From NCBI GenBank assembly GCA_963575745.1, contig CAUYUJ010000336.1, positions 372,001 through 436,000 of the forward strand: 64,000 nucleotides of DNA, written 5' to 3'. The DNA comes from Prorocentrum cordatum (lineage: Eukaryota). The translations under genes were made by a program, and so were the position numbers. Under the pieces are notes generated by a model. The model saw only the letters and a list, made by a program, of their open reading frames with translations. It was not told the DNA's origin and searched no databases. This document shows, one piece after another, positions 2,740-54,598 of the stretch; position 1 is the stretch's first letter; the number at the start of each line of letters is the position of its first letter.

Positions 2740-3349
2740 GCCGGCCGCGGTGGGGCACGGCTGAGAGGGCGACGACGTCGACGACGACGACGACGGCGGC
2801 GACGATGACGGCGGCGACGGCGGCGGCGACGGCGACGGCGGCCCCTTTGCTTCTCAATGCACGTTCGGTTTGATAGGATTTTCCCCCCTCAGGGCATGCC
2901 CCAGCATGTGTTCATATTGGGCCCATACCGTAACACTTCATGCAGCGGGGCCACGAATCCAGAACAGCCCTTCAGAGATCCGTCCCCAGCTTTTCTCCAC
3001 GGATTTTCCTCACCTGGAGCGGTACCGACATGTGTGCGCGACCACGGCGTGCAGGCGGGGAAGCGGGCAATCATATGAACCCACCGCTGGGCATAGGCTT
3101 TGTTGCGTTTCGGGCTCGAAGAAAGTTTGTGGCACGGGTGGGAGGACGAGAGGCAGGGGGGAGGATGACGGAAGGAAGGGGCAAGGAGTGAGAACGCACA
3201 CGTGCGAGACTCCGCGAATCCGTTAATTTTTCTTGACGTTCCGCGCATCCCCACCAGCCCATCCGAAACCGACGCCCAGGCAAGCTGTGACGACAGCCGT
3301 CATCATTCGAAGGAAGAGGAGGATGGATGAGGGAGTAGGCGCGGGCCAC

Positions 3350-12415: not shown

Positions 12416-12650
12416 CTGGGCCAGAAGCCACACCATGCTATGTCATGCTACGCTCTGACCTTCAACGCCATGCTACGCCATGTAATGCCATGCCATGCTG
12501 CGGCATCCGATAGTGCGAATAGAGAGGCGACATACGCCATGGTAAGGGATGGGAGGGAGGGGTAGGACATCATATATGACGCGAGCGCACCTATGTAGTT
12601 TGCCCTCCCCCCCTCCCCCCCTCCCTCGACGCCGGCGGCTCCGCCTGGAG

Positions 12651-12707
12651 GCGCGGCCTGCCCGCCGACGAGCTCGCGGCGATCGTCCGGGAGGACCTGG
12701 TGAAGAG
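12651..12707 (+). CDS. Exon B: RGLPADELAAIVREDLVK(R)
   Basis: Pyrimidine tract at 12601-12627, AG|G acceptor, AG|GC donor at 12708, GC3-rich codons, phase-compatible with exon C. Confidence 0.85.
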
Positions 12708-15542: not shown

Positions 15543-15587
15543 GCAGTTCTTGGCCACCGCGGACTTCACGCGGTCGGTCTACGATGA
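15543..15587 (+). CDS. Exon C: QFLATADFTRSVYD(E)
   Basis: CAG|G acceptor and GA|GC donor at 15588. The split GAG codon is completed by exon D. Confidence 0.88.
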   Translation, partial: AVLGHRGLHAVGLR

Positions 15588-16499
15588 GCCCCGCCCCCGG
15601 CGCACCGTCACGCGCTCCGCGCCTTTCTTCCCTCCTCCCCCAGTCCTTATTCCTTCTGCCGCTCTTCACCCTCCTACTCCTTGTGTGTGCCCTCCTCCCC
15701 CCGTCCACAGTCCCCCATCTGCCGCTCTTCACCCTCCTTTTCCTTGTGTGTGCCCTCCTCCTCCTCCTCCTCCTCCTCCTCCTCCTCCTCCTCCTCCTCC
15801 TCCTCTTCCTCTTCCTTTTCCTTCCCTCTGCTACAAATGGCCCATCATATGTGATGTTCGCATCTTGGGATCTACCTTTCAAGGCAGGTGCGTGCTAGTC
15901 CTTCACTGGAATCCCCGATGCCTTTTTTTTCCTCTTCTTGCTCGTGTGTTCGTGGGACGGTCCAGTCTAGCGGCGCGCCACCCAGAACACCGACAAGCCC
16001 TTCCCTTTGCGAATAGCCCTCTTCATCGCCCCCCCTTCCCTTTTCCTTATATCCCTCCACAGTTCCCTTTTCCATCCGAAGCTTCACTCGTATCCTTCAT
16101 CCCGCCTGCGCCTGCCGGTTTTCCTCCTCCTCCTCCTCCTCTTCCTCCTCCTTTTCCTCCTCCTACTCTTTCTCCTCCTCCTCCCTTTCCTCCTCCTCCT
16201 CCCTTTCCTCCTCCTCCTCCTCCTCCTCCTCCTCCTCCCTCTTCTCCTTGTATATTTATCATTCCCCCTCTCTTCTCTCCTCTCCTCTCCTCTCCTCTCC
16301 TCTTATCTCCCCCTCCTTCTCCTCCTCTTCCTCTCCCTGTTCCTCCTGCTGTCTCCTCCTGTTCCTCTTTCTCCTCCTCTTTTATCTCGTTGGCTATATG
16401 TTCTCCTTCCTCTCTTGTCACTCCTCTCTTCCCTTCAGCTCGAAAGGTAGTTTCCTGTATCGCCTTGCCTTCCTTGCCTTTCCCTTATCATTTGCCTAC

Positions 16500-19400: not shown

Positions 19401-21260
19401 CGACATGGGCGCCCAACGGCAGCCGATCCGAGCACGGCGCGCGCGTCATTCGCGACCGCGCCCAACGACGACGACGAGCTCCGCTGCCCGCAACTAGCGC
19501 TGGAGCTACTGCGACATCAGGACGAGCAGCTGCGGCGAGGCGCGCGGAGTTGGGCGTGGGCCCTTGCCCCCCCCCCCCCGCGCTGGCCGCGGCGCCCGCC
19601 GCGCCTCCCCGGGTGGCCGTTTTCGCCAGCGACAACCAGGAGTGCCCCGTCAGTCTTGGGGCGTGCGTGCACGCCGAGAGGGCTGCACTGAGCACTGCGC
19701 CGACGCATTCTGCGCCGCGCATGCCACCTGCAACTCGCGCAGAACACCGCCGCCAGCACGGCCCGCTGCCCGCGCGCCGCGGACCAGCCGACGCCATCGA
19801 CATCTTCCGCTGCATTGGCGCAGATCGCGCGCCCGCGGGCCCGGCCCACTGCGCCGGCCAGGGGGGCGCCTGCAGGGGGCGCGCTGGAGGAGACGCCGCC
19901 GCGACAGGACAAAGCGCAGTCTCGACGCCACGGCCCGGTCAGCAGCGGGCGCAGCGGTGCCATGCAGCGCCCGCCTGGATTTTCACGTGCATCCATTTGG
20001 GCTTACTTCAGATGGGCCTACACTCCCGTGGTGGCCCACTTCGTCAGGCGCAGGTTCGAACTCGCACGACGACCCGCCATGCTACTTGGCATGTACTTCG
20101 AGCGATCGCTATCAGTAGGCACCACCGTCGGCGCCGGCGCCTGGACCGACCTCCAGGGGGCGCGGTTCGCCCAGGACTTGGCGCGGCGAGCCGCGCGGGC
20201 GAAGTTCTGCCCCTCGGGGGGAATGTTGTCATCTCTATTGCACGCGGCAGGAGCAGGTAGCAGGTCAGGAGGCGAATTGGGAGATTGGCTGCCCCATCGC
20301 GACGACGTCGCGCGACAACTCGCGCCGCTTACGGAGCTCACGCTGCTGGCGATGGGCAGCGATAGCCAGGGCCACTGCGACGTCGACGGATGAGAATGCA
20401 GCCAGTTAGAGGTGCATCCTCTCAGTGTGGATGCGAGAGCACCTGCGCGTAGCGCCGCCGGGGCGCTGCCGGCTACGAGTGCGCGCTAGCTCCGACACTG
20501 GCATTCCGCTTTACGGTGGGGATGTGGCGCCCACGGACATAGATGCATGAGCGCCACCAGACACATAAGTACATATTGCCCCACGCTCAGGTCTCGCCCC
20601 CAGAGGCATCGGCATCGCCGGCGGCGCGGCGGGCCCCGAGCACCGCGGGGAGATCAAGGACACCGTGCACAACGCAAACCCGCGGATCCACGTTGTCGAG
20701 CAGGGCCACCACAGCGCCAGCTCATCCTGGAACGGCGCAACGACGACGCCGAAATTGTCGCCCCCACCCTACCTTCATCGTATCGGGGATCGGGTGGCTT
20801 TCGACATGCGGGCATGACGTACATCAGCCCCAACGCTATCCCGAGCGACGTGGCCCGTCCGACTTCCGAGGGCCACTTCGGCACTTATGGCGCCAACTGC
20901 CCTGGGGAGCCGGCGCGCGGGGAAATCGCATGGCCGGCCCGCCAGGCTGGCCCTGCCGCCCCCCCCCCAGCAGAAATGGGCAGCAGGACCAGGACGCCCC
21001 GCCCAGGCCCCAGAGCAGGGACGGGATACATCACGGGCACTAGAGGCTCAGCTCCGACGTCATCCGACTCGACTTCGAGTGCGCCGTCAGCTCGCTGGAA
21101 GATAGGGCCTTCCCCAGCACCATCTACATCATGTTATCATGTTGTGGATTACGTGCGACACGAGCAGGAATGAGGTTCACCGTGTCCTCGATTCTCTGCC
21201 CGCGGACTGGCGCGCCCTGGTCAAGGACGCCGGCGCCTGGATCGCGGGGGCCTCGAGCGG
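16500..21260 (+). mobile_element. Heavily decayed non-LTR retrotransposon (APE endonuclease, RT, C-terminal Cys/His region)
   Basis: Collinear degenerate motifs across frames: GQE (about 17430), GD and LARFDIF (about 17820-17990, like SRLDRIF), NQECPVS (about 19635, like QGCPLS), PADAIDIF (about 19785, like YADDI), HFGTYGANCP (about 20875). Many frameshifts; boundaries approximate. Confidence 0.6.
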
Positions 21261-21261
21261 T

Positions 21262-22094
21262 TTTGGGTCAGCTTGGGCCAGCTTGACGTGGTTTTGGCAA
21301 CCTTGGAAGCCGCCCTGGAGACACGGCCCAAGAGGTCTCCAAGAGTCCTACCAGGAAAGCCCGAGGAGGCCCAAACGAATGATTTTCGATGGCTTTCAGC
21401 AGATTTTGAGGTTCTGGCGCGTTTGGGCTTCCGACCGCGACAGGCCAAAGGCCTCTCTGGGCCGTTTCGCTGTTCTGTGGAACGCTTCAAGGCAGTCTTG
21501 GTGCCCTTCCGGGAGCCCTTGAGGTCATATTCGGACCCTCTTGGCCCGACTTGCGGCCCTCTCGGGGGCCTCTCGGGTTGTCTCAGCGCTATCTGGGAAA
21601 TCTGTTGGAGGGCTTTTGGGCCGCCCCGGGCGGTCGGAAACCCGAACTGGCGAGAATTTCAAAACCTTCCAACACCTGTTGGACAACGGCAGTTGTGCCC
21701 CACTCGGGCTCCCCAGAAAGGCCGCGTGGAGCTCTCTGCGACCGTTTTGGAGGATTCCTGGGCCGACTTGAGGCCCTCTAGGGTGTTTTTTGGATGCCTC
21801 ATGGGCCGCTGTGAGGTTGTTTTTAGTAAACGCTCTTGTTATCTGGGGCCGTCTTGAGCCGGTTTGTCGTCGCATCGGCAGTTGGCTTGGAGGCCATCTT
21901 GGCCGTCTTGGAGGCCGAACAGAGCGCCCGGGGGCATCGTCAGAAGGGGGGCGACTTTTGAACCCCAGGGGGAGGGGGTCGAAATTTGAAAACTATGTCA
22001 AAAATGTCGTTCGAATACGTTTTAAACAACAATCCCCGTGGACTGCAGGAGCATTCTAGCACGCCCCTTCCGTGCCCGAGGCACGGTGGCGGAT
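21262..22094 (-). mobile_element. Non-autonomous element with TCTTGG-rich body ending in hairpin plus GGCGGAT
   Basis: CCGTGCC-CGA-GGCACGG-TGGCGGAT at 22070-22094. The body resembles 43600-44130 and 54370-54960. Left boundary approximate. Confidence 0.5.
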
Positions 22095-22821
22095 GACGGG
22101 AAGCGCCTCCGGCGTGCACCGTTGGTTCAGGGGCTTAATTTTCTCTAACTAAGGGGTACCGATTCCATCCCGCACTTCGCTGGCGCCGTCCTGCCTCCAC
22201 TGATGACGGGAAGCGCCTCCGGCGTGCACCGTTGGTTCTGGGGAATTAAGCACCCCCAAAGGCTCCCATTTTTCGTTGGCGGATGACGGGAAGCGCCTCC
22301 GGCGTGCACCGTTGGTTCTGGGGCTTAATTTTCTCTAACTAAGGGGTACGGGCTCCATCCCGAAACTCGTTGGCGGATGACGGGAAGCGTCTTCGAGGTA
22401 CGAGAAGCAAGCGGGACGTTCTGGCTGAATCCTTGAGTAAATATATATATATATATATCTTTAACTATATGGGTTGCCGCGCTGCACGGGGTATGACGGG
22501 AAGCGTCTTCGAGGTACGAGAAGCAAGCGGGACGTTCTGGCTGAATCCTTGAGTAAATATATATATATATATATATATCTTTATATCTATGGGTTGCCGC
22601 GCTGCACGGGATTTTTCGTTGGCGGATGACGGGAAGCGTCTTCGAGGTACGAGAAGCAAGCGGGACGTTCTGGCTGAATCCTTGAGTAAATATATATATA
22701 TATATATATATATCTTTATATCTATGGGTTGCCGCGCCGCACGGGATCATTCGTTGGCGGATGACGGGAAGCGTCTTCGAGGTACGAGAAGCAAGCGGGA
22801 CGTTCTGGCTGAATCCTTGAG

Positions 22822-22856
<35 letters not shown>

Positions 22857-23128
22857 TATATATCTATGACGGGAAGCGTCTTCGAGGTACGAGAAGCAAG
22901 CGGGACGTTCTGCTGAATCCTTGAGTAAATATATATATATATATCTTTATATCTATGGGTTTTTTTCATTGGCGGATTCCCCAAAATGGCCATTTCGCTC
23001 GAGACATCCTCGAAAAATCGAGGTGTTGGAGGTTATCGTTTAAGACGTCTTATGTCAAAAATGACGGTTGACGGGAAGCGTCTTCGAGGTACGAGAAGCA
23101 AGCGGGACGTTCTGGCTGAATCCTTGAG

Positions 23129-23163
<35 letters not shown>

Positions 23164-23208
23164 TTATATCTATGGGTTGCGGGGTGCACGGGGGTTTTTT
23201 GGGCGGAT
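22095..23208. repeat. Head-to-tail array of about 80-135 bp units starting GACGGGAAGCG (3 type-A and 6 type-B units with (TA)n)
   Basis: Units start near 22095, 22205, 22285, 22379, 22495, 22628, 22763, 22868 and 23070. Most end in TTGGCGGAT. Confidence 0.9.
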
Positions 23209-26200
23209 TCCCCAAAATGGCCATTTCGCTCGAGACATCCTCGAAAAATCGAGGTGTTGGAGGCTATCGTTTAAGACGTCTTATGTCAAAAATGACGGTT
23301 TCGCTCGAGACATCCTCAAAAAATCGGGATGTTGAAAAATATCAAAAATTTTTGTTATGCATGAAAAATGAGCGTTTCGCTCGAGACATCCTCGAAAAAA
23401 TGAGATGCCGACAGAGGTGTTTTAGAACCTCTTATGTCAAAAAAGACGTTTTCGCTCGGGACGTCCTCAGAAAATGAGCAGGTGGTCTGCCGTGCTCCCG
23501 TGTGGAGCACGGCAGACCACGGCCATTTCGCTCGAGACATCCTCAAAAAATCGAGGTGTGGTCTGCCGTGCTCCTGTGTGGTCTGCCTTGCTCCTGGGGG
23601 GCAAACCAGCAACACGTCAAGAAGTTACCCAGGGGACCAATCAGCAACACGTCAAGAAGTTATCCTGGGGGGCAAACCAGCAACACGTCAAGAAGTTATC
23701 CCGAAGGGGCAAACCAGCAACACGTCAAGAAGGTGCTGATGGGGGGCAAACCAGCAACACGTCAAGAAGTTATCCTGGGGGGGAAACCATTTCGCTCGAG
23801 ACATCCTCAAAAAATCGAGGTGTGGTCTGCCGTGCTCCTGTGTGGTCTGCCTTGCTCCTGTGGTCTGCCGTGCTCCTCACAGGAGCACGGCAGACCGCGC
23901 GTAGGAACCGAGAGGAGCACGGCAGACCAAGACGAGGAGCACGGCAGACCAGGCTTAGGAACCGAGAGGAGCACGGCAGACCAAGACGAGGAGCACGGCA
24001 GACCAGGCACCAAGAGCGCCCTCAAGACGACGGAAAGGATGACCAAGACGAGGAGCACGGCAGACCAAGACGAGGAGCACGGCAGACTATGCCCTAAGAG
24101 TGCCCTCAAGACGGCCGAACAACGGCAGACCACAGAAGAGCACGGCAGACCACAGAAGAGCACGGCAGACCACGGAGCACGGCAGACCACACAAGAGCAC
24201 GGCAGACCAGGAGCACGGCAGACAAGAGCACGGCAGACCCCACAGGAGCACGGCAGACCCCACAGGAGCACGGCAGAGCAGACCCAAAAGGAACACGGCA
24301 GACCACACAGGAGCAAGGCAAACCACAGGAGCACGGCAGACCACACAGGAGCACGGCAGACCCCACAGTAGCAAGGCAGACCCCAAAGGAGCACGGCAGA
24401 CCACCGGAGCACGGCAGACCACACAGGAGTACGGCAGACCCCACATGAGCACGGCAAATCCCAAATGAGCACGGCAGACCACAAGAGCACGGCAGACCAC
24501 ACAGGAGCACGGCAGACTCCACAGGAGCACGGCAGACCACAAAGGAGCACGGCAGACCACACAGGAGCCCGGCAGACGCCACAGGAGCACGGCAGACGCC
24601 ACAGGAGCACGGCGGAACCCACAGGAGCACGGCAGACCGCGCGCGGGTACAACATAAACGCGCCTTTTTGTTGTACCCCGAACGCCGCTGGCGTTTCCCC
24701 AACAGGAGCACGGCAGATCTCACAGGCGCGCGGCAGACCCCAAATGAGCACGGCCGACCACAGGAGCACGGCAGACCCCAAATGAGTACGGCAGACCCCA
24801 AAGAGCACCGTAGACGCCTCAGGAGCACGGCTGACCACACAGGAGCACGGCAGACCACACAGGAGCGCGGCAGAACCACAAAGGAGCAAGGCAGACCCCA
24901 AATGAGCACGGCAGTCCACACGTTCGCACGGCAGACCGCACAGGAGCACGGCAGACCGCACATGAGCACGGCAGACCAAGAAGGAGCACGGCAGACCACA
25001 CAGGAGCACGGCAGGACGGCAGACCACACAGGAGCACGGAGCACGGCAACCACACAGGCAGACCACACAGGAGCACGGCAAACCACACAAGAGCACGGCA
25101 GACCATACAGGAGCACGCCAGACCACACAGGAGCACGGCAGACCACACGTTCGCACGGCAAACTCCACAGGAGCACGGCAGACCCCAAAGAAGCACGGCA
25201 GTGGTACGTGGCACTGCTGTGGTATGCCGTACTAAAAACGTGGAATAGATCATAAGCCCAGGGGACAAGAGGACGCTTCCCGTTCTTGTCCGGTCAGGTT
25301 CGCTCGAGACATCCTCAAAAAATCGGCATGTTGAAAAATATCAAAAATTTTTGTATGCATGAAAAATGAGCGTTTCGCTCGAGACATCCTCGAAAAAATG
25401 AGATGCCGACAGAGGTGTTTTAGAACCTCTTATGTTAAAAATGACGTTTTCGCTCGGGACGTCCTCAGAAAATGAGCAGGTGGTCTGCCGTGCTCCCGTG
25501 TGGAGCACGGCACACGGCAGACCCCACAGGAGCACGGCAGACCCCACAGGAGCACGGCAGAAATTTTTGTTATGCATGAAAAATGAGCGTTTCGCTCGAG
25601 ACATCCTCGAAAAAATGAGATGCCGACAGAGGTGTTTTAGAACCTCTTATGTTAAAAATGACGTTTTCGCTCGGGACGTCCTCAGAAAATGAGCAGGTGG
25701 TCTGCCGTGCTGTCGTGTGGAGCACGGCAGACCACCTGCATTTCGCTCGAGACATCCTCAAAAAATCGAGGTGTGGTCTGCCGTGCTCCTGTGTGGTCTG
25801 CCGTGCTCCTGTGGTCTGCCGTGCTCCTTTCGGTTCCTACGCGCGGTCTGCCGTGCTCCCTGAAGACGACGGAAAGGATGACCAAGACGAGGAGCACGGC
25901 AGACCAAGACGAGGAGCACGGCAGACTATGCCCTAAGAGTGCCCTCAAGACGGCCGAACAACGGCAGACCCCATAGGAGCACGCAGACCACAGAAGAGCA
26001 CGGCAGACCAACAGGAGCACGGCAGACCACACAAGAGCACGGCAGGCCACACAGGAGCACGGCAGACCACACAGGAGCACGGCACCACAAAGGAGCAGCC
26101 AACCACACAGAGAGCAAGGCAGACCCCACACGACCGCAACCCCACAGAGCACGGCAGACCCACGGCAGACCACATGAGCACGGCAGACCACAAAGGAGCA

Positions 26201-28960
26201 CGGCAGACCACACAAGAGCACGGCAGACCCAACAAGAGCACGGCAGACCCCACGGAGCACGGCAGACCCCACAGGAGCACGGCAGAGCAGACCCAAAAGG
26301 AGCACGGCAGACCACACAGGAGCAAGGCAAACCACAGGAGCACGGCAGACCACACAGGAGCACGGCAGACCCCACAGTAGCAAGGCAGACCCCAAAGGAG
26401 CACGGCAGACCACCGGAGCACGGCAGACCACACAGGAGTACGGCAGACCCCACATGAGCACGGCAAATCCCAAATGAGCACGGCAGACCACAAGAGCACG
26501 GCAGACCACACAGGAGCACGGCAGACTCCACCGGAGCACGGCAGACCACAAAGGAGCACGGCAGACCACACAGGAGCCCGGCAGACGCCACAGGAGCACG
26601 GCAGACGCCACAGGAGCACGGCGGAACCCACAGGAGCACGGCAGACCGCGCGCGGGTAAAACATAAACGCGCCTTTTTGTTGTACCCCGAACGCCGCTGG
26701 CGTTTCCCCAACAGGAGCACGGCAGATCTCACAGGCGCGCGGCAGACCCCAAATGAGCACGACCGACCACAGGAGCACGGCAGACCCCAAAGGAGTACGG
26801 CAGACCCCAAAAGAGCACCGTAGACGCCTCAGGAGCACGGCTGACCACACAGGAGCACGGCAGCCTGGGCCGGTTCCGGCGCCGGCCGGCGCCGGAAAAA
26901 TGAATTCCGAGGCGGTGCCGAAAAAAGGCCACTCCAAGACACATTTTTCTTTCAAAAATATTGATTTTCTGCTCCCGGCGCCCGGGAACCCCTTCCGGGC
27001 CGCTTCCGGCACCCGGGCCGGCGCTCGAGCCGAACGCCTGGGCCGGCACCACACAGGAGCGCGGCAAACCACAAAGGAGCAAGGCAGACCCCAAATGAGC
27101 ACGGCAATCCACACGTTCGCACGGCAGCCCGCACAGGAGCACGGCAGACCCCACATGAGCACGGCAGACCAAGAAGGAGCACGGCAGACCACACAGGAGC
27201 ACGGCAGACCACACAGGAGCACGGCAGACCACACAGGACACGGCAGACCCCACCGGAGCACGGCAGACCCCAAAGAAGCACGGCAAACCACACAAGAGCA
27301 CGGCAGACCATACAGGAGCACGCCAGACCACACAGGAGCACGGCAGACCATACGTTCGCACGGCAAACTCCACAGGAGCACGGCAGACCCCAAAGGAGCA
27401 CGGCAGTGGTACGTGGCACTGCTGTGGTATGCCGTACTAAAAACGTGGAATATCTCATAAGCCCAGGGGACAAAAGCACGCTTCCCGTTCTTGTCCGGTC
27501 AGTTCCCCAAAATGGCCATTTCGCTCGAGACATCCTCGAAAAATCGAGGTGTTGGAGGCTATCGTTTAAGACGTCTTATGTCAAAAATGACGGTTTCGCT
27601 CGAGACATCCTCAAAAAATCGGGATGTTGAAAAATATCAAAAAATTTTGTTATGCATGAAAAATGAGCGTTTCGCTCGAGACATCCTCGAAAAAATGAGA
27701 TGCCGACAGAGGTGTTTTACAACCTTTTATGTTAAAAATGACGTTTTCGCTCGGGACGTCCTCAGAAAATGAGCAGGTGGTCTGCCGTGCTCCTGTGTGG
27801 AGCACGGCAGACCACGGCCATTTCGCTCGAGACATCCTCAAAAAATCAAGGTGTGGTCTGCCGTGCTCCTGTGTGGTCTGCCGTGCTCCTGTGGTCTGCC
27901 GTGCTCCCCACAGGAGCACGGCAGACCGCGCGTAGGAACCGAGAGGAGCACGGCAGACCAAAACGAGGAGCACGGCAGACCAGGCTTAGGAACCGAGAGG
28001 AGCACGGCAGACCAAGACGACGAGCACGGCAGACCAGGCACCAAGAGCGCCCTCAAGACGACGGAAAGGATGACCAAAACGAGGAGCACGGCAGACCAAG
28101 ACGGGGAGCACGGCAGACTATGCCCTAAGAGTGCCCTCAAGACGGCCGAACAACGGCAGACCCCATAGGAGCACGGCAGACCACAGAAGAGCACGGCAGA
28201 CCAACAGGAGCACGGCAGACCACACAAGAGCACGGCAGGCCACACAGGAGCACGGCAGACCACACAGGAGCACTGCAGACCACAAAGGAGCACGGCAGAC
28301 CACACAAGAGCACGGCAGACCCCACAAGAGCACGGCAGACCCCACAGGAGCACGGCAGACCCCACAGGAGCACGGCAGAGCAGACCCAAAAGGAGCACGG
28401 CAGACCACTCAGGAGCAAGGCAAACCACAGGAGCACGGCAGACCACACAGGAGCACGGCAGACCCCACAGTAGCAAGGCAGACCCCAAAGGAGCACGGCA
28501 GACCACCGGAGCACGGCAGACCACACAGGAGTACGGCAGACCCCACATGAGCACGGCAAATCCCAAATGTGCACGGCAGACCACAAGAGCACGGCAGACT
28601 ACACAGGAGCACGGCAGACTCCACAGGAGCACGGCAGACCACAAAGGAGCACGGCAGACCACACAGGAGCCCGGCAGACGCCACAGGAGCACGGCAGACG
28701 CCACAGGAGCACGGCGGAACCCACAGGAGCACGGCAGACCGCGCGCGGGTACAACATAAACGCGCCTTTTTGTTGTAACCCGAACGCCGCTGGCGTTTCC
28801 CCAACAGGAGCACGGCAGATCTCACAGGCCACGGCAGACCCCAAAATGAGCACGGCCGACCACAAGGAGTCACGGCAGACCCCAATGAAGCACGGCAGAC
28901 TCCCAAAAGGCGTCCGTAGACCGCCTCAGGAGCATTCTGACTCACACAGAGCACGGCAAG

Positions 28961-29545
28961 CCCGGGCCGGTTCCGGCGCCGGCCGGCGCCGGAAAATTGA
29001 ATTCCGAGGCGGTGCCGAAAAAAGGCCACTCCAAGACATATTTTTTCTTTCGAAAATATTGATTTTCTGCTCCCGGCGCCCGGGAACCCCTTCCGGGCCG
29101 CTTCTGGCCCCCGGGCCGGCGCTCGAGCCAAACGCCCGGGCCAGCACCCGGGCCAGCGCCCGGGCCGGTTCCGGCGCCGGCCGGCGCCGGAAAATTGAAT
29201 TCCGAGGCGGTGCCTAAAAAAGGCCACTCCAAGACATATTTTTCTTTCGAAAATATTGATTTTCTGCTCCCGGCGCCCGGGAACCCCTTCCGGGCCGCTT
29301 CCGGCACCCTGGCCGGCGCTCGAGCCGAACGCCTGGGCCAGCACCCGGGCCAGCGCCCGGGCCGGTTCCGGCGCCGGCCGGCGCCGGAAAATTGAAATCC
29401 GAGGCGGTGCGGAAAAAAGGCCACTCCAAGACATATTTTTCTTTCGAAAATATTGATTTTCTGCTCCCGGCGCCCTGGAAACCCCTTCCGGGCCGATTCC
29501 GGCACCCAGGCCGGCGCTCGAACCGAACGCCCGGGCCGGCACCTG
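28961..29545. repeat. Three tandem ~198-bp units, with a fourth at about 26865-27045, each containing a 24-bp perfect palindrome
   Basis: TTCCGGCGCCGGCCGGCGCCGGAA at 26874, 28971, 29169 and 29366. Confidence 0.9.
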
Positions 29546-29979
29546 GGCTGGCGGCCGACGCGCGATGCGCTGCCACAAGCCAGCTTCCCGCAAGATCGGT
29601 CCAGAGTGGGAGGGGACGGAGCTGGGCGGGTGAAGGACCACCACAGCACTGCTCCAGCCTTCCCTCAGCCCTGGGTCTGCTGACCACACAGGAGCACGGC
29701 AGACCACACAGGAGCGCGGCAAACCACAAAGGAGCAAGGCAGACCCCAAATGAGCAAGGCAGTCCACACGTTCGCACGGCAGACCGCACAGGAGCACGGC
29801 AGACCGCACATGAGCACGGCAGACCAAGAAGGAGCACGGCAGACCACACAGGAGCACGGCAGACCACACAGGAGCACGGCAGACCACACAGGACACGGCA
29901 GACCCCACGGGAGCACGGCAGACCACACAGGAACACGGCAAACCACACAAGAGCACGGCAGACCATACAGGAGCACGCC

Positions 29980-30079
29980 NNNNNNNNNNNNNNNNNNNNN
30001 NNNNNNNNNNNNNNNNNNNNNNNNNNNNNNNNNNNNNNNNNNNNNNNNNNNNNNNNNNNNNNNNNNNNNNNNNNNNNNN
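29980..30079. other. Assembly gap (100 N)
   Basis: Run of N inside the satellite, so the true array length is unknown. Confidence 1.
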
Positions 30080-32042
30080 CGGCACACTCCACAGGAGCAC
30101 GGCAGACCCCAAAGGAGCACGGCAGACCACAGGAGCACGGCAGACCGTCTTCGAGGCCTCTTGGGCCGTCTTGGGGCCCTCTTGGAGCCATCTTAGCCGT
30201 CTTGGAGGCCATCTTGGCCGTCTTGGAAGACATCTTGGGCGTCTTGGAGGCCTCTTGCGCCGTGTTAGGGCCCTCTTGGGACCGTCTTGGGGACTTCTTG
30301 GGCCGTTTCGGGGCCATCTTGAAGGCCTCTTGGGCGATCTTAAAACGATCTTGGGGGCCTCTTGGGCCGTCTTGGGCCGTCGGAACGCGGCAGGCCATCA
30401 TTTAGTCTGTTCTGTTGCGTTTATGGGTTTCTCTGACGTTCTCGCCAATACGGTCTCTGACGCACGTGGTGGATAAAAAACGGCGCTTCCCGTTTTTGTC
30501 CGGTCAGGTTCCCCAAAATGGTCTGGCGTGCTCCTGTATGGTCTGCCGTGCTCTTGTGTGGTTTGCCGTGCTCCTGTGTGGTCTGCCGTGCTCCCGTGGG
30601 GTCTGCCGTGTCCTGTGTGGTCTGCCGTGCTCCTGTGTGGTCTGCCGTGTTCCGGAAAATTTGGCCGTTTCGCTCGGGACGTCCTCAAAAAATCGGCTCC
30701 GGAGGGGACTCCGAAGCAGCATTATCTTGGAATCGCTCCCGGAGGGCCTCCAAACGGCCCAAGAAAGCCCCCGAAGGCCCCCCAGAGGACCCCCAGAGCG
30801 CCCCAAGAGACCCCCAAGAGGCCCCCAAGGGGCGGCCAGAGGCCCGCCAGAGCGCCCAAAACGCCCCAAGAGACCCCCAAGAAGCCCCCCAGGGGCTCCA
30901 AAGAGGCGGCCAGAAGTCCCCCAGAACGCGCGAAAAGGCTCCAGGAGTTCCCTGAGAGCTTCATATCGCCCCATAGAGCCCCCGAAGGCCCCCCCCGGGA
31001 CTCCCCCAAGAGGCCCCCGAGAGGCCAGAGGCTACGACAGCCCCAAGAGCGTCCAAGATACCTCCAAGACGGCGCCGAAGCCAGGAAACGCAACAGGGAT
31101 GTTCTCTGACGTTCTCGCCAATACGGTCTCCGACGCACGTGGTGGATAAAAAACTGCGTTTCCCGTTCTTGTCCGGTCAGGTTCCGGAAAATTGCGGAAA
31201 AATTGTCACTCCGCTCAAAAAATCTGACCAAGACGCGCCCAAGACGGCCACCAGGGCTCCAAGACGGCCCAAGAGCGCTCCAAGACCGCCCTAGAGCGTT
31301 CCAAGATGCCCTAAGATGGCTTCCAGACGGTCCAAGAGAGCTCCAAGACGGCCCAGGAGGCCCTCAACAGGCCTCCAAGACGCCGCAAGAGGCTTCGAAG
31401 AGGCCTCACAAGAGCGCCAAAGAGGCACACACCTATGATTTTTGAATAGTTTTTGAAGGTTTTTGGGGTTCTCGCCTTTTCCGTTTCCCGACGCTCCAAG
31501 ATTGCCCAAGAGGCCCCCAAGATCGCCCCAAGACGGCCCAAGAGGCCCCCAAGATCGCCTCAAGACGGCCCAAGAGGCCCCCAAGACGGCCCCAAGAAGG
31601 CACCAGAAGGCCCCAAGGCGGCCCCAAGACGGCCCCACGAGGCTTCGCGGCGGCCCAAGAGGCCGTCAATATGGCTCCTAGAGGGGGCCCAGACGAGGTA
31701 CACGAACGGACTTTTCGGGTCCTCGGCCCCAAGTGCCCCCCCGGAGGGTCCAGGAGGCCCCCGGGAGCCCCCCAAGACGCTCCAAGAGGCCCCCAAGAGG
31801 CCCCAAAAAGGCCCCCACGATGCCCCCAAGACGGCCCGAAAAAACGGCCCCCAAGAGGCTTCAGAATTGCTTCTAAGAGGCCTACGAGAGACCGACCACG
31901 ACATCCCAAGGTTCCATTACGAACGATGACGTGGGCAGCTTCGAACGCCAGAGCTCCCAGTACGAACGCTGGCGTCCAGAGCTTTGACGACAAACACTGC
32001 TACGAGCAAAAACGGCGCTTCCTGTTCTTGTGCGGTCAGGTT

Positions 32043-33935
32043 TGGAACATCCCGAGACAATCCGTTTTCGCCGCTTGTGTTTATAATGGTAATGACGAAA
32101 GTTGTTCGAGACCGAGCGTCGCGCAGATCCCAGCGCACGAAAAGCTTCGCAAGCAGAGACATGGGCCATATGTGGACGACACGCTGCTCGTAGGGCGTGA
32201 CCACGTTCATGTGCAATCTCTCGTGGGCAACTTCCAAGTGCAAGGGGCCAGAACGTCTTCGAATTAAATTGGTTTCAGCTTCAACGCATATCTGTCCGAG
32301 CTAACATGAATCTCAAGACGCCACAGGGCGAGCCAATTCCAGCAAACGAATCATTCGTGCGTCTTGGAGCAACCTTATCGAGTTCAGTCTGGGTGTTAAG
32401 GGAATTCTAGACGCTTCGCGTATCCCCCACCAGCCATTCATTGCATGTTTTTACTGCAGGTGTGTTGCATGTTGTTGTAATTAGCCTCGCCTGCTGGCCC
32501 AGTCGACGCCTTCCGCTCCGTGTCCGCCGCCTCGGAGCCGCTGACAAAAAAGTATCCCCACCAGCTGTGTAATTAGATCGGCCCGCGGCCCGGACCTTTC
32601 ACCACGGCGCTTGCGTTTTCGCTTGCGCCCGCGAGGAAAAAGTATCCCCACCAGCCCATCCAGAAACGATGTCCAGGCGAGTTGAGGTGATCAGGGAAGT
32701 GCGGCAGCAAAGAGGGGGACGGCCGAACCGTGCAAAGGAGTGAGGAGGAGAAGGAGGGGTGGATGGATGGATGGATGGATGAGGGAGTGGGAAGAAGGAG
32801 GATGAATAGGATAAGGAGGAAGCGGAGGAGGAGAAGGAGGAGGAAGAAACGGAGTAGGAGGAGGAAGGAGGAACAGGAGGAGGAGGAGGGCAAGCACAAG
32901 GGCCAGATGTCTCTTGGATGCGTCTCGGAGCCTCTTGGGGTATCTCTTGGGCGATTATTCGTGGCCTCTTGGGACGCCTTGGGGGTCTCTTGGCGGTCGT
33001 GTGGGGCTCTTCGGCGCTTTGGGTGCCTCGGGTGGGGGCCTCTTGGAGCCGCTTGGGATCCTTCGGGGGGCCTCCTGGGGGCCTCTTGGGGGCCTCTTGG
33101 GGCCATCTTGGGGCCATCTTGGGACCTCTTGGGGCCTCCTGGGCGCTTCTCGGGGCCATCTTGGAGGAGATCGATCAAGCAAGAGGGGAGCTTTAATTAG
33201 GCCCCCCCCCAGGAGGCCAAAATGGGGCCCAAACCCAACTAACACCAATGATTTTGGCTTCTTCGCCGAGGCCGTTTTGGACGCCCTGACACCTCGCGAA
33301 ACCCCTCGTCCAGGTCCAGGGGAGGGGGTATGGGGGATGGTACACCCCTCCCCGAAGGGGAAGAAGGAGGGGTGGAAGAGGAAACGCCCTAAACCACCGA
33401 CGCCCCGAGGGCTGGTGGGATTCAGCAAGACAAACGGGTGCAGCGTTGGGTGAACGTTGCAGAAATTGGCGCGCGTGGAAACGCACAACGCTTAGGACTT
33501 CGCGCGGACTTCAAGCATCCCATGTTCTGGCCACGAGCAAAGGGCCGACAACTAGATGGTGTCCGATCCATGTGCGTCCGCGGCATCGTGCACATTCCGT
33601 CTGCGCACGTTTCCCATAATTTCGAATGGAGAAGTGTTGGCGAGAGCAAAGCCAGAACCCTACACGGCCCAGCTTCCTGGATATCAGTTGTTGAGGTCAG
33701 GGAAAGTAGGTATACCGAGTAATTACAAGTTAGTGGTGCGCCTGACGCTTCACGACGGCGCTTACGACCAGCTACAGACGTTGACTCTTGGTTTGTACGG
33801 CGGTCGAGAAAGGAATGGGCCAAGTGCCATATGAGTACGATTGACCAGCATTTCGCCCCCAAGGGGGCCGCAATGCAAAACGTCCGCGAGTCCATCGGTT
33901 TGGCGAAATATTGTGGCGAATTGTGTGTCATATGA
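32043..33935 (+). mobile_element. Decayed RTE-like LINE, 3' half (RT core to C-terminus), interrupted by an insertion at 32405-33421
   Basis: GTSRDNPFSPLVFIMVMT (like GISQGCPLSP), YVDDTLLVG with YVDD at 32169-32180, FVRLGATL (like YLG). After the insertion: ARQTGAALGE..AWKR, RQLDG..CVRGIVHIP..ISNGEVLARA and RRSRKEWAK (like GRPRxxW). Confidence 0.8.
32405..33421 (-). mobile_element. Non-autonomous element with Helitron2/Helentron-like ends (asymmetric inverted repeats plus hairpins), no TSD
   Basis: Left end: hairpin ACGC-TTC-GCGT (32411-32421) followed by ATCCCCCACCAGCC. Right end: GGGCTGGTGGGAT (33409-33421) inside hairpin CCACC..GCCC-CGA-GGGC.GGTGG. Internal GGCCTCTTGG-type repeats. Excision restores the LINE frame. 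Confidence 0.65.
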
Positions 33936-34110
33936 TTTTTTCCGTCTGCCGCACTACACGTAATTCAATATTGATTGTTGGTCGGCCGCCATTCCTGCAA
34001 AGCGGCAGTCGGCGTGCGGCGGCGTGCGTTGCCTTCTGCCCGAGCGCCCAGGCGTATGGCACGTTCGTTTGTTTGTTTGGGACTTCCTGGGGGTAATTAA
34101 GACCCCCTCC

Positions 34111-35220: not shown

Positions 35221-36123
35221 ACGTTTCGCAGATCAGCCGTAACGGTTCACATCCAGACGTAACTTGTCACGGCCGATTTCTGCGACCACATCAGCAACGT
35301 CGTTCCGTCATTAGAATGTTTGGTAGTACCCCATGTCCTCCACGATGGGTTGCATGAGGGCCCCAGTGGCTCCCTCTAGTTAGGGTCACACGAGACATCC
35401 ACGATGGCTCAAGAGGGCTCCCAACATGCCTCCAGGAGGCCCCAAGACCGCCCCAAGGCAGCTCCAAGTGGCCACGGCGCCTCCCAATGACGGCACCGAG
35501 CTCTTGCACGTCCTTGATCAAGGCAGTTCGTGTTTGCATCCTTCATAGATGGGTTGGTGGGGATGCGCGAAGCGCTAAAGACTTGGCAGCGTCCCTCGCC
35601 GCGCGCCCACGGCATCGCCGCCCAAGGTGCAGCCAAGCAGCAGCAACAACGGCTCCTCCCTTCGCCAATTCCATCTCATCACCTACCTTCCTGTGCTTCC
35701 CCATCCTCTTGCTCCATCTCCGTCCTTCTGCTCCCTCTCCGAAGCTCTCGCCGTGGCACTGCGCCAGTGTCGCGCCCGTGGCCGCTCTCGGAGGCGTAGT
35801 GTGCGAGCCTTCGGTTGCGCCTCCTCCTGCCTCCTCATGCCTCTTCACCTCCTCCGCACGGGGGGGGGAGGGGAAGGGGCAGAGGACGGAGGGAGGAGAA
35901 GACTGAGGCGCGGGGGGTGCGGGGGGTGAAGATGCAGGGGATGGGAGGGCCAGAGGAGGGAGGTGAGGAGAGGACAGGGGGGAGGCGAAGACGGAGATGG
36001 GGGAGAGGGGAGAGGACGGCCCCGGGCAGGGGGGGGGGGGGATGGCGGGGGGCGCTGCGACTGGCGGCGGGGCGGCCCGCGGCGGGGCTGCCCCCGCGGC
36101 AGGGCGGCGGGCTTCCCGCCGAG

Positions 36124-43419: not shown

Positions 43420-44253
43420 ATCGAAGACGCCTGCGGCGAATCACTGCCGGCCCCTGCCTTCTTGGAAGCGCTTGCGTGGCCGAAAGTTGATTTTGAGCGT
43501 GGCTAAGCTACCGGGTCACGCGCTCCCCGAGTGGGTTCCGAAAGTTTTCGGGGAACACGGAGTCGGGCGAGCTATCGGACCAGGTGGTTTCCGAGCTTTC
43601 GGGTTTCCTGGAGGACGTCTTGGAGGGCTCTTGGGCCGTCTTGGAGGCCTGGCCTTCTTGGAGGCACCTTGGAGGCCATCTTGTCCGTGTTGGATGCCAT
43701 CTTTGGGGCCTTTTGGGCCGTCTTGGGGTCGTGTTGGGGCCCTCTCGGGGGTCTCTTGGGCTGTCATGGGGCCATCTTGGAGGCCTCTTGTGCGCTCTTG
43801 GGGCGATGTTGGAGGCCGCTTGGGCCGTCTTCGGCCGTCGGAGAGCTGAAAAGACGAACATGCCAACATCCTTCAATAACCGATGGATAATCCATGACTT
43901 TCGTCCTTTCGGATCTTCCTGGTGGAGCTCTTGGAGGGCTCTTGGGGCTCGCTTGGGCAGTCTTAGGGCAAGTTTGGAGGCCTCTTGGGCCGTCTTGGAG
44001 GCATCTTGGACCCTCTTGGACCGTCTTGGAAGCCATCTTCGACCATCTTAGGTGGACTCGGAAGCCCTCTTGGGCCATCTTGCTCGTCTTGGAGGCATCT
44101 TGGAGTCCGTGTGGGGCCATCTTGGGCATGACATGTATTGACATGTGCAATTTTGGGTCTCTTCGGGTGGCCGGCGGGACGGGCCGAAACCCCAGTGAGT
44201 TTTTTTAAAGAGCCAAAATCGTCTAGGATCTAACGCGCCAGGGAGCGGCGGAT
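43420..44253 (-). mobile_element. Non-autonomous TCTTGG-rich element ending in GGCGGAT, directly followed by the left terminus of a related element (44255 to about 44760)
   Basis: GGCGGAT at 44247-44253, then GGCC-TTC-GGCC hairpin (44260-44270) and ATCCCGCCACC (44272-44282). Confidence 0.45.
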
Positions 44254-44782
44254 CTTGGTGGCCTTCGGCCCATCCCGCCACCTTGTCTGGGTTGTGGGTC
44301 TGAGACCTCTTGCATATGTGTTGGGGTGTCCTGAGGGGCCCCTCGGGGGCCTCGTGGAGGCGGTTTCGGCGCCTCTTGGGGGCCTCTTGGGGCCTCGTGG
44401 GATATCTTTTGGGCTTCTTGGAGGCATCTTTATCGCGTCTTAGACTCCTCTTGGAACCTCGTGGGGGCTTCTCGGGGATTCTCGGAGCGCTTCTTGGGTC
44501 ATCTTGGAGCCCTCTCGGGCCTTCTTGTGGCTCTCTTGAAGGCGTCTTGGGTTGTCTTTGGCCGGTCTTGGGAGCTGTTTGAGTAATCTTGGGGCGTCGG
44601 AAAGCGGAAATTGCGAGAACCCCAGATTCCTTCACATGTTTTGGTGAAATCGACGATGTTGGCCTCTTGGGGCTCTCTCGGGAGGGCTCTTGGAGTGCTC
44701 TTGGGGCCCTCTTGGGCCGTCTTGGAACCATCGTCGGGCGCCTTGGAGCACCCATGTCCGCGGCAATACGAATCTGGCGTAC

Positions 44783-54294: not shown

Positions 54295-54557
54295 AGCTAT
54301 CTGCTGGCATTCGACCCATCCCGCCACCGCGCCTGGGTTGTAGGTATTAAGCATAGTGGATGTTCGTTCAGATCTCGTGGGAGGCTTCTCGGGGGCATCT
54401 TGAAGGCAGTTTAGAGGCCTCTTGGGGGCCGTTTGGGGGTCTCTTGCGGCCTCTATTGGGCCTTTGGGGGCCTCCTCGGGGCCTCTTGGGGCCTCCTAGG
54501 CGCCTCTTGGGGCCTCCTGGGCTCTTGGGGCGGAAGGCTCGGATTTTCGGTTCGTGT

Positions 54558-54598
<41 letters not shown>

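What the first reader, a model, noticed from the sequence alone, without database searches (positions are those of the whole stretch)
32405..33421. Helitron2/Helentron-like element inserted cleanly without a TSD
Seen: removing 32405-33421 (boundary ambiguous by one T) rejoins the RTE-like LINE in frame as ..LGATLSSSVWVLRE|SARQTGAALGE..AWKR, resembling ELxRRIGxAxxxF..W, with no duplicated target. On the minus strand the insert starts ATCCCACCAGCCC, which folds into a 5' hairpin. It ends GGCTGGTGGGGGAT, then hairpin ACGC-GAA-GCGT, then CTAGAA. Established: a 5' inverted repeat at the terminus forming a hairpin, a 3' inverted repeat just before a subterminal hairpin, and no TSD describe Helitron2/Helentron rolling-circle elements. 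The same 3' terminus recurs at 3225-3264 and inverted at 35548-35584, with partial copies near 32551 and 32641. Inference: an abundant non-autonomous rolling-circle family in a dinoflagellate. No Rep/helicase gene is visible here.
Basis: partly seen in the sequence, partly recalled or inferred. Interest (0 to 1): 0.78.

Follow-up and report, generated by a model that had tools for sequence, protein, structure and literature searches.

The report
Helitron2-like non-autonomous transposon, abundant family
The 1 kb stretch is one full copy of a very abundant, protein-less mobile element of marine (probably dinoflagellate) plankton whose ends look like those of rolling-circle Helitron2/Helentron transposons, but the enzyme that moves it was not found.

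Summary
The sequence features are there as described. The insert is a discrete repeat. Public contigs pile up thousands-fold over 32637-33440 and fall to single-copy depth beyond about 33440. A metagenome scan gave 34 loci with the same 3' terminus. Their similarity stops at a conserved tail CAAGAATT, then the flanks differ. Five of those loci hold full copies of 781-1686 nt. They have the window copy's plan: a 5' inverted repeat with a hairpin, central tandem repeats, a 3' inverted repeat, a GCGAAGC mini-hairpin and a short tail. This fits non-autonomous Helitron2/Helentron elements (HINE/DINE-1-like).

Corrections:
- The family span is 32403-33422.
- A 224-nt segment (32423-32646) is extra to this copy.
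- An AAT triplet flanks both ends, so "no TSD" is not shown.
- CTAG is not the family consensus.
- The "RTE-like LINE" host is not supported.

Still missing: no Rep/helicase partner, empty site or head-to-tail junction was found. The mechanism is therefore inferred, with confidence about 0.65. A dinoflagellate host is supported only indirectly. I file it as a new member of a known kind, of moderate interest.

The parts
33420..33422 (-). AAT just 5' of the element's inverted repeat. It is either the first bases of the element or a preferred target.
   Evidence: Over 7 distinct loci, T at -1 in 7 of 7, A at -2 in 6 of 7, A at -3 in 4 of 7.
33409..33419 (-). 5' terminal inverted repeat CCCACCAGCCC.
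   Evidence: 100% complementary to 32647-32657 and, over 10 nt, to 32426-32435. Identical in 6 of 6 full copies.
33394..33419 (-). 5' hairpin CCAC-CA-GCCC / TCG / GGGC-GTCG-GTGG, nested in the 5' repeat.
   Evidence: Predicted fold -6.8 kcal/mol, z -0.50, so not above shuffles. Both stem halves are kept in 6 of 6 full copies; L001 has one G-T.
33173..33393 (-). Conserved 5' body, including CCCCTTCGGGGAGGGGTGTACC..
   Evidence: Aligns with L001, L003, L009 and L015 at 71-80% over 127-154 nt. X1 depth is 6,072-25,143.
32905..33172 (-). Central tandem array (CCAAGAGGCCCC)n, period 11/22/32.
   Evidence: TRF array at 33033-33164. Present in 5 of 6 full copies, weak in L003. X1 depth up to 169,692. 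Similar arrays occur elsewhere in the window.
32736..32889 (-). (CCT)n microsatellite.
   Evidence: TRF period 3, 49 copies. CT-rich stretches lie at the same place in L001 and L015.
32644..32735 (-). Conserved 3' body block ..CTCAACTCGCCTGGACATCGTTTCTGGATG plus the family's normal 3' inverted repeat GGGCTGGTGGGGAT (32644-32657).
   Evidence: 91% identical to L001 over 78 aligned positions. X1 depth 36,035 in bin 32637-32703.
32423..32646 (-). Copy-specific extra 224 nt. It is two modules, each starting ACTTTTT and ending in a further GCTGGTGGGGAT (32554-32566 and 32422-32435).
   Evidence: Joint 32422->32647 in 2 X1 contigs, and depth of only 114-297. Absent from all 5 metagenome full copies. 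No match in the 34 loci.
32422..32435 (-). Terminal copy of the 3' inverted repeat, GGCTGGTGGGGGAT.
32411..32421 (-). 3' palindrome ACGC-GAA-GCGT, whose core is GCGAAGC.
   Evidence: The same sequence is in the X1 loose-end consensus of 85 contigs. GCGAAGC is a known very stable DNA mini-hairpin, Tm 76.5 C (PMC13037366 table passage).
32403..32410 (-). 3' tail CTAGAATT (family consensus CAAGAATT). Similarity between copies ends here.
   Evidence: Base counts over 32 distinct flanks: C22 A27 A27 G28 A30 A28 T29 T28, then T18, then no preference. Matches between copies end at +0..+12.
3222..3293 (-). Degenerate 3' end of another copy (..GGATGGGCTGGTGGGGAT GCGCGGAACGTC AAGAA).
35548..35584 (+). 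3' end of another, older copy (GGTTGGTGGGGAT GCGC-GAA-GCGC TAAAGA), preceded by CCAAG-type repeats.

Best explanation
Window 32403-33422 (minus strand) is a full-length copy of a high-copy, non-autonomous transposon of the Helitron-like element 2 type (Helitron2/Helentron; HINE/DINE-1-like).

Shown: the family has fixed ends and variable flanks. Its plan is 5' (A)AT-CCCACCAGCCC with a nested hairpin, a conserved 5' body, (CCAAGAGGCC)n and (CCT)n arrays, a conserved 3' block, GGGCTGGTGGGGAT, a GCGAAGC mini-hairpin and CAAGAATT.

Inferred mechanism: a RepHel (HUH nuclease plus Pif1-like helicase) encoded elsewhere nicks the element strand at the 5' end and peels it off as single-stranded DNA. 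It recognises the 3' inverted repeat plus mini-hairpin as the stop signal, cuts about 8 nt behind the hairpin, and joins the strand into a T-rich (..AAT|T..) target without duplicating it.

The 224-nt extra segment in this copy, and the many copies that share only the 3' end, would come from missed or alternative termination and from 5' heterogeneity, as in other Helitron-like elements.
For: (1) Discrete repeat. X1 depth is 0-7 in the flanks and 6,000-36,000 in the element. Two X2 contigs stop matching at 33422 and 33426 although they run on 31 and 179 letters further.
(2) 34 metagenome loci carry the 3' terminus, against 0 in prokaryote genomes and 0 in viral contigs. The tail CAAGAATT was not in the search pattern, yet it is kept in 22-30 of 32 distinct flanks per position, after which the bases show no preference. 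Matches between copies end at +0..+12.
(3) 5 loci plus the window hold both ends in the right order and orientation, 781-1686 nt apart, with colinear internal blocks.
(4) The TIRs are 11-13 nt. The palindrome follows the right TIR. T stands at -1 in 7 of 7 5' flanks, and T follows GAA(T) in 28-29 of 32. This is the HLE2 layout and T-T rule as published (PMC11417382). A 5' inverted repeat nested in the subTIR, central tandem repeats and very high copy number match HINE/DINE-1 (PMC4067079).
(5) The 3' terminus is shared by internally unrelated copies, and the 5' ends vary. L002 and L031 are 96.7% alike over about 630 nt, have different flanks and share a non-canonical 5' end. HLE left ends are reported to be more diverse than right ends.
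(6) The palindrome core GCGAAGC is a very stable single-strand DNA mini-hairpin, which fits a single-stranded intermediate.
(7) A Helitron2-like RepHel exists in a dinoflagellate (PMC8788227).
Against: No Rep/helicase was found. 0 of 153 window ORFs have any Pfam family, and no Rep or Pif1-type helicase appears in the 28 locus ORFs scanned out of 201 listed; the one helicase hit is Upf1-like and lies in a flank. No genome is held.

No empty site was seen, so 'no TSD' is untested. AAT flanks both ends in 4 of 6 full copies and could be a 3-bp TSD.

Only 5 of 17 loci with at least 800 nt upstream show the canonical 5' TIR. No head-to-tail junction occurs in the 34 loci or the window.

Hairpin energies do not exceed shuffles. 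There is no compensatory change within the metagenome set: the outer pair is A-T in 21, G-T in 11 and A-C in 2 of 34, and the core was fixed by the search pattern.

The 3' end is more compact than in described HINEs: the TIR lies 21 nt from the end, against 38-60.
Confidence: 0.65

Rival explanations
1. A non-autonomous cut-and-paste or recombinase element with asymmetric ends. A DDE transposase makes a 3-bp AAT target duplication, or a Crypton-like tyrosine recombinase crosses over at a short AAT(T) core. The inverted repeats would be protein binding sites.
For: AAT stands directly outside CCCACC.. and directly after ..CAAG in the window and in 3 of 5 metagenome full copies. The TIRs are perfect over 11 nt. 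No RepHel was found.
Against: The 3' TIR is followed by 15-21 conserved nt (AT, palindrome, CAAG) that have no counterpart at the 5' end, in 34 of 34 loci; cut-and-paste ends are symmetric. The 3' AAT is constant (A30, A28, T29 of 32), while the 5' triplet differs from it in L001 (GAT) and L029 (CCT), so it behaves as element sequence, not as a copied target. AAT matches no TSD that I recall for a TIR superfamily (recalled, not tested). Joining the ends would put about 18-21 nt between the repeat arms, longer than I recall for tyrosine-recombinase core sites (recalled).
Confidence: 0.17
2. A single-strand (HUH-type or other) transposon of a kind not yet described in eukaryotes. It would use the terminal hairpins as IS200/IS605 or IS91 elements do, and be moved by something other than a Helitron RepHel.
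For: There are hairpins at or near both ends, a constant short sequence at the left flank that resembles the right end (AAT), and no variable TSD. The GCGAAGC single-strand mini-hairpin is present. The anatomy alone cannot tell which enzyme acts.
Against: Every feature seen is already accounted for by HLE2. HLE2-type RepHel is known in dinoflagellates. No candidate enzyme was seen here.
Confidence: 0.13
3. The conserved 45-nt motif (..GGATGGGCTGGTGGGGAT-RCGCGAAGCGT-CAAGAATT) is a host signal or a small stand-alone repeat, and the 1-kb unit is a chance composite of simple repeats.
For: In several loci (L007, L008, L014) only about 40 nt around the motif is shared with other copies. The interior of the window copy is largely simple repeats that are common across the window.
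Against: Six copies share both ends, the order and the internal blocks over 0.8-1.7 kb, with unrelated flanks. The depth profile has sharp edges at the two termini. The 12-mer CCCACCAGCCCT upstream at 781-1686 nt in 5 loci is far beyond chance in about 58 kb of loci (my own estimate, no shuffle was run).
Confidence: 0.03

Closest known systems
HINEs / DINE-1 (non-autonomous Helentrons of mites, mosquitoes and Drosophila; PMC4067079, passages read)
   Same: 12-15 bp subterminal inverted repeats, with the 5' one 2-4 nt from the end. A short inverted repeat nested in or next to the 5' repeat. Central microsatellite or tandem repeats that can fill about half the element. A short palindrome near the 3' end. 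T-rich boundaries with TT preference. No coding capacity. Copy numbers far above any partner.
   Different: Here the 3' repeat lies about 21 nt from the end (38-60 in mite HINEs). The palindrome is a 3-4 bp stem around GAA, about 8 nt from the end. The host is probably a dinoflagellate. No partner Helentron is known, and there is no sequence similarity to the described families.
Helitron-like element 2 as defined for HELIANO (PMC11417382, passages read)
   Same: Short TIRs (12-16 nt) at both ends, a stem-loop after the right repeat, T on both flanks, and left ends more diverse than right ends.
   Different: Membership is defined in the end by the RepHel phylogeny, which could not be tested. 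Whether this is the canonical or the 'HLE2-reverse' arrangement cannot be told without the gene's orientation.
Helitron2-like autonomous element of Symbiodinium microadriaticum (PMC8788227, passages read)
   Same: Dinoflagellate host and Helitron2-type structure. It is the most likely kind of partner.
   Different: That element encodes RepHel. Its termini were not available here, so no comparison of the ends was possible.
Canonical Helitron (HLE1)
   Same: No variable TSD, a 3' hairpin, conserved 3' ends and a start at TC (TCCCACC).
   Different: HLE1 has no TIRs, ends in CTRR and inserts between A and T. Here TIRs are present. CTAG is seen in the window copy and in 3 of 32 distinct metagenome flanks only, the consensus being CAAG.
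Helentron-borne satellite-like arrays of the Pacific oyster (PMC7492417; title and start of abstract only)
   Same: Non-autonomous Helentrons that carry and disperse tandem-repeat arrays.
   Different: Different host and repeats. I did not read that paper's text.
Bacterial IS200/IS605 and IS91 (recalled, no call)
   Same: HUH enzymes acting on single strands, subterminal hairpins, insertion next to a short fixed sequence and no TSD. This is an analogy of how it works, not membership.
   Different: These are prokaryotic, have no helicase fusion and are unrelated in sequence.

Membership tests
HLE2 (Helitron2/Helentron), non-autonomous | Short terminal or subterminal inverted repeats of about 12-16 nt | tested here: met
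   11 nt perfect (13-14 nt with one indel) in the window. The 5' repeat is identical in 6 of 6 full copies. The 3' repeat is present in 34 of 34 loci, though it was part of the search pattern.
HLE2 (Helitron2/Helentron), non-autonomous | Stem-loop or palindrome after the right repeat, near the 3' end | tested here: met
   RCGC-GAA-GCGY lies 2 nt after the repeat and 8 nt before the end. It is predicted as the minimum-energy fold, but its energy does not exceed shuffles. Its conservation in X1 contigs is independent of my pattern.
HLE2 (Helitron2/Helentron), non-autonomous | Insertion between T and T without target duplication | tested here: inconclusive
   T at -1 in 7 of 7 loci, and T after GAA/GAAT in 29 and 28 of 32. 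There is no TSD of variable sequence in the 6 full copies. But AAT stands on both sides in 4 of 6, and no empty site was available.
HLE2 (Helitron2/Helentron), non-autonomous | Autonomous partner with RepHel (HUH Rep plus Pif1-like helicase) sharing the termini | not testable with these tools
There is no Rep or Pif1 hit in 153 window ORFs or 28 locus ORFs.
HLE2 (Helitron2/Helentron), non-autonomous | 3' ends shared between families, with more diverse 5' ends | tested here: met
   At least four unrelated upstream sequences carry the same terminus. L002 and L031 share a non-canonical 5' end. The canonical 5' end is present in 5 of 17 loci with at least 800 nt upstream.
Canonical Helitron (HLE1) | 5' TC, 3' hairpin plus CTRR, A-T target, no TIRs | tested here: not met
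   TIRs are present. The tail consensus is CAAGAATT; CTAG occurs in 3 of 32 flanks plus the window.
Cut-and-paste TIR element / MITE | Symmetric TIRs at the very ends, flanked by a TSD of fixed length and variable sequence | tested here: not met
   The 3' TIR is followed by 15-21 conserved nt that are absent at the 5' end. No variable TSD is seen, only a constant AAT.
RTE-like LINE (proposed host sequence) | Recognisable reverse-transcriptase domain in the flanks | tested here: not met
   Pfam finds 0 RT hits in 5 flank ORFs. The word-index search found none. The only HMMER hit in 1.84 billion proteins is a non-RT repeat protein. The flanks are single copy in X1.

The most novel reading that the evidence does not exclude
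This family is the main vehicle that seeded the dispersed (GGGGCCTCTTGG)n satellite-like arrays through a large dinoflagellate genome. It would be moved by the early-branching dinoflagellate Helitron2-like RepHel lineage, with the very stable GCGAAGC single-strand mini-hairpin as its termination signal. It is shared, possibly by horizontal transfer, among several plankton species seen in unrelated marine runs.
Probability: 0.3. Interest if true: 0.6.

Novelty: new member of a known kind. Interest (0 to 1): 0.45.

Why it matters
Dinoflagellate genomes are huge and repeat-rich, and much of their repeat content is unclassified. In the held library only 34 papers contain both 'helitron' and 'dinoflagellate' and 14 contain 'helitron' and 'Symbiodinium'. 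None of the titles and abstract starts listed describes a non-autonomous Helitron2-type family in these organisms. A well-bounded, very high-copy HINE-like family would give annotators a consensus for a large share of 'unknown' repeats. It would explain where dispersed tandem arrays come from. It would also give a structural handle (termini) for finding the active RepHel elements. The invariant GCGAAGC mini-hairpin makes a concrete, testable proposal for what the enzyme reads on single-stranded DNA.

Tried and rejected
- The whole-genome search of the window's assembly is not possible, because no genome is held.
- Earlier notes of this scan returned nothing in 3 look-ups.
- The terminus pattern gave 0 matches in prokaryote genome contigs and in viral contigs.
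- LINE host: see the observation check. The YVDD-like string at about 32172-32183 aligns to an AVDDALLDG repeat of the one HMMER hit.
- Rfam found 0 matches at E up to 0.1 in 31800-34000.
- Protein Atlas look-up of the L034 gene gave PP2C clusters only and no useful taxon.
- Head-to-tail junction pattern: 0 in the 34 loci and 0 in the window. A degenerate junction-like string in L020/L027 would escape that exact pattern.
- L020 and L027 share at least 2.2 kb with a helicase-like ORF and looked like a candidate autonomous copy. The ORF is Upf1-like (AAA_11/AAA_12), lies outside the putative 5' end, and the two contigs share the flank too, so they are one locus.
- L012 against L017 looked like a filled/empty pair. 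It is a 490-nt versus 23-nt replacement 59 nt outside the element and says nothing about this family.
- The 224-nt extra segment has no counterpart in the loci.
- Runs X2-X12 hold only small shares of the words. I draw no habitat or strain conclusion from them.
- No joint across the whole insert was among the 15 joints shown by read laying, and 105 more were not shown. This says nothing about empty alleles.
Full report
**What is in the sequence**

Read on the minus strand, the stretch runs ..CTTGCTGAAT | CCCACCAGCCC TCG GGGCGTCGGTGG TTTA.. at 33422 downwards. It ends ..AATGAATGGCTGGTGGGGGAT ACGC-GAA-GCGT CTAGAATT | CCC.. at 32403.

- The 31-nt 3' terminus is unique in the window, against 0 expected.
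- The 13-nt repeat motif occurs 5 times against 0.27 expected: at 3247, 32554 and 32644 on the minus strand, and at 33410 and 35552 on the plus strand.
- The inverted repeats 32647-32657/33409-33419 (11 nt) and 32426-32435/33410-33419 (10 nt) are perfect.
- The interior holds an (AGG)n run at 32736-32889 and an 11/22/32-nt array at 33033-33164. Relatives of both are scattered over the window.

**Is it a discrete repeat?**

No genome is held for this window, so I used public runs. Run X1 holds 0.35 of the sampled words. It contains the right flank without a single difference (records 7 and 8).

Summed contig depth in X1:

| Window range | Depth |
|---|---|
| 32101-32368 (left flank) | 0 to 7.3 |
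| 32369-32636 | 114-297 |
| 32637-32703 | 36,035 |
| 33039-33172 (array) | 169,692 and 49,553 |
| 33173-33440 | 6,072-25,143 |
| from 33441 (right flank) | 1.7 to 7.3 |

The tool warns that this is not a copy number. The contrast of three to four orders of magnitude and the sharp right edge are still clear. Two contigs of X2 stop matching at 33422 and 33426 although they run on for 31 and 179 more letters. The same profile appears in X2 and X4 (marine metagenomes) and in X8 (another organism).

**The left part of this copy is not the family norm**

- 85 X1 contigs that match from 32642 rightwards carry, just before it, a consensus ending ..TTCTTGACGCTTCGC.
- Two contigs join 32422 directly to 32647.

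So in ordinary copies the palindrome and tail sit right next to the repeat at 32644-32657. In the window copy, 224 nt (32423-32646) are extra. They form two modules, each beginning ACTTTTT and each ending in another GCTGGTGGGGAT. They have no counterpart in the metagenome loci.

**Copies from elsewhere**

A scan with RCGCTTCGCGYATCCCCACCARCC found 0 matches in prokaryote genomes, 0 in viral contigs and 34 loci in metagenome contigs.

The 3' end:
- After the pattern, the eight bases CAAGAATT were not part of the pattern. Per position they are kept in 22, 27, 27, 28, 30, 28, 29 and 28 of 32 distinct flanks. (L006/L030 and L012/L016 are the same locus and were counted once.)
- Position 9 is T in 18 of 32. 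After that the bases show no preference.
- In an all-against-all comparison, matches anchored on the 3' end stop at +0 to +12, except within those same-locus pairs and the paralogues L012/L016/L017.

The 5' end:
- Five loci also hold the 5' end in the right orientation: L001, L003, L009, L015 and L029, at 972, 781, 797, 1213 and 1686 nt upstream.
- All five begin CCCACCAGCCCT.TGGGC....GTGGT.T, as the window copy does.
- The alignment of the six copies shows one plan: 5' repeat with nested hairpin; a block around CCCCTTCGGGGAGGGGTTTACCCCTCCCC; CCAAGA(G/T)G(G/C)C arrays; CT-rich runs; the block CTCAACTC.CCTGG.CATCGTTTCTGGATG; the 3' repeat; the palindrome; the tail.

The window copy is therefore a bona fide full-length member. 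The metagenome copies align to window 32403/32404 through 33421-33423.

**Results that cut the other way**

- Of 17 loci with at least 800 nt upstream of the 3' end, only 5 show the canonical 5' repeat.
- L023 has the 5' body without its first 66 nt.
- L002 and L031 are 96.7% alike over about 630 nt and have different flanks. They share a different 5' end, CATCCGCGCC.
- L007, L008 and L014 share only about 40 nt around the terminus with anything else.
- No head-to-tail junction was found.
- Folding energies of the terminal hairpins are ordinary: -2.9 and -6.8 kcal/mol, z -0.34 and -0.50.
- The outer pair of the 3' palindrome is A-T in 21, G-T in 11 and A-C in 2 of 34 loci. The one G-C pair, at 35565-35575 in the window, is the only double change. 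The palindrome core was fixed by my pattern, so covariation is not shown.

**Target site**

Immediately 5' of CCCACC there is T in 7 of 7 distinct loci, A before it in 6 of 7, and A before that in 4 of 7. At the other end the conserved tail ends GAATT.

In the window and three other full copies, AAT thus stands on both sides. In L001 (GAT against AAT) and L029 (CCT against AAT) it does not. The 3' AAT is constant and behaves as element sequence. The 5' AAT may be the element's first bases, because the repeat can be extended to ATCCC-ACCAGCCC / GGGCTGGTGGGGAT with one indel. Or it may be a preferred target.

The data fit insertion between two T's without duplication. A 3-bp AAT duplication cannot be excluded without an empty site, and I found none.

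Removing 1017 or 1014 nt both keep the frame (my reading).

**The supposed LINE is not supported**

- Pfam finds no RT in five flank ORFs.
- The word-index search found nothing.
- HMMER over 1.84 billion representatives returned one protein (E 6.7e-07). It is 4714 aa long and carries DUF5122 and dockerin domains. The window's ..YVDDTLLVG.. aligns to its AVDDALLDG repeat.
- The flanks are single copy in X1.

**What it is**

The published marks of Helitron-like element 2 are short inverted repeats (12-16 nt) at both ends, a stem-loop after the right repeat, and insertion between T and T. Left ends are reported to be more diverse than right ends (PMC11417382, passages).

Its non-autonomous forms (HINEs, DINE-1) add further marks (PMC4067079, passages):
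- a 5' repeat 2-4 nt from the end;
- a small inverted repeat nested at the 5' repeat;
- central microsatellite or tandem repeats of up to about half the element;
- a short 3' palindrome;
- T-rich boundaries;
- copy numbers far above the partner's.

The family here meets each structural point that could be tested. Its 3' end is more compact: the repeat lies 21 nt and the palindrome 8 nt from the end.

It fails the canonical Helitron pattern. It has TIRs, and the CTAG of the window copy is CAAG in the family (CTAG in 3 of 32 flanks). It also fails the cut-and-paste pattern, because its ends are asymmetric and it has no variable TSD.

The core of the palindrome, GCGAAGC, is the known very stable DNA mini-hairpin, with Tm 76.5 C for GCGA-AGC. 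[quoted passage not shown] Nearest-neighbour energies may understate its stability. That is my inference. It fits a signal read on single-stranded DNA.

**What is missing**

- None of 153 window ORFs has any Pfam family (27, 126). These were chosen from 417 ORFs of at least 90 aa by a composition filter.
- Of 201 locus ORFs of at least 110 aa, I scanned 28. They gave host-type genes (PP2C-UBX, a sodium:solute symporter) and one Upf1-like helicase fragment. That fragment lies in the flank of a single locus, L020/L027.
- The enzyme is therefore unknown, and rolling-circle movement is inferred from anatomy.
- A Helitron2-like RepHel has been reported from Symbiodinium microadriaticum (PMC8788227, passages), so a partner of the right kind exists in the group.

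**Host**

The window itself holds no recognisable gene. The PP2C-UBX gene next to the copy in L034 has Prorocentrum, Symbiodinium, Effrenium, Durusdinium and an 'Aza..' MMETSP entry as its only named relatives. That is 5 of 5 rows with an organism name among the 120 listed, at 50-57% identity. The family is found in marine runs and metagenomes. 'Dinoflagellate' is thus a reasonable but indirect inference.

**Novelty**

In the held library 34 papers contain both 'helitron' and 'dinoflagellate' and 14 contain 'helitron' and 'Symbiodinium'. Going by the listed titles and abstract starts, none describes such a non-autonomous family. I read passages of only PMC8788227, PMC9087856 and PMC12130899. 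Repbase could not be consulted, and the supplements of these papers were not opened.

I file it as a new member of a known kind.

**Verdict**

- The LINE and clean-insertion arguments should be dropped.
- The element span should be corrected to 32403-33422, with a copy-specific 224-nt addition.

Noticed in passing
window 32423-32646: Two tandem modules (about 90 and 132 nt) sit between the family's normal 3' repeat and the palindrome. Each starts ACTTTTT, holds CTAATTACA and ends in GCTGGTGGGGAT. They could be products of missed termination or template switching. Depth in X1 is 114-297, so a few dozen-fold relatives may exist.
   Followed up: partly
window 30145-31889, 43606-44749, 53691-54963 and others: Arrays of the CCAAGAGGCC/GGCCTCTTGG type, like the element's central array, occur in both orientations but without recognisable family termini nearby. 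They may be old, decayed copies or independent satellites.
   Followed up: partly
window 24001-30000 and 29980-30079: A 6-kb block has a very strong AT skew (0.48-0.53), and next to it lies a 100-N assembly gap.
   Followed up: no
window, whole: None of the 153 longer, compositionally ordinary ORFs has any Pfam family. The window looks gene-free and repeat-rich.
   Followed up: yes
L002 and L031: Two copies, 96.7% alike over about 630 nt, lie at different loci. They share a 5' end (CATCCGCGCC) that lacks the inverted repeat. A 5'-variant therefore seems to have moved or been copied as a unit.
   Followed up: partly
L020 and L027, about 1650 nt upstream of the 3' end: The string ..TGGGGATACGCGAAGC-ATAT-CCCCACCAGTCC.. 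looks like a truncated 3' end abutting a 5'-type repeat. It is a possible relic of a head-to-tail junction. The two contigs are the same locus.
   Followed up: partly
L015, last about 250 nt of the element: The 3' block (..TTTCTGGACGGGC) is partly duplicated, with about 170 nt between the two copies. This is another case of 3'-end heterogeneity like that of the window copy.
   Followed up: no
L012 301-789 against L017 210-232: In paralogous flanks, 59 nt beyond the element, 490 nt in one contig stand in place of 23 nt in the other. It is a replacement, not a clean insertion.
   Followed up: partly
window 33330-33375 (minus strand): Internal palindromes CCCC-TTC-GGGG and GGGGAGGGG-TGTA-CC.. lie in the conserved 5' body. 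In other copies the second is a perfect 9-bp stem, GGGGAGGGG TTTA CCCCTCCCC.
   Followed up: no
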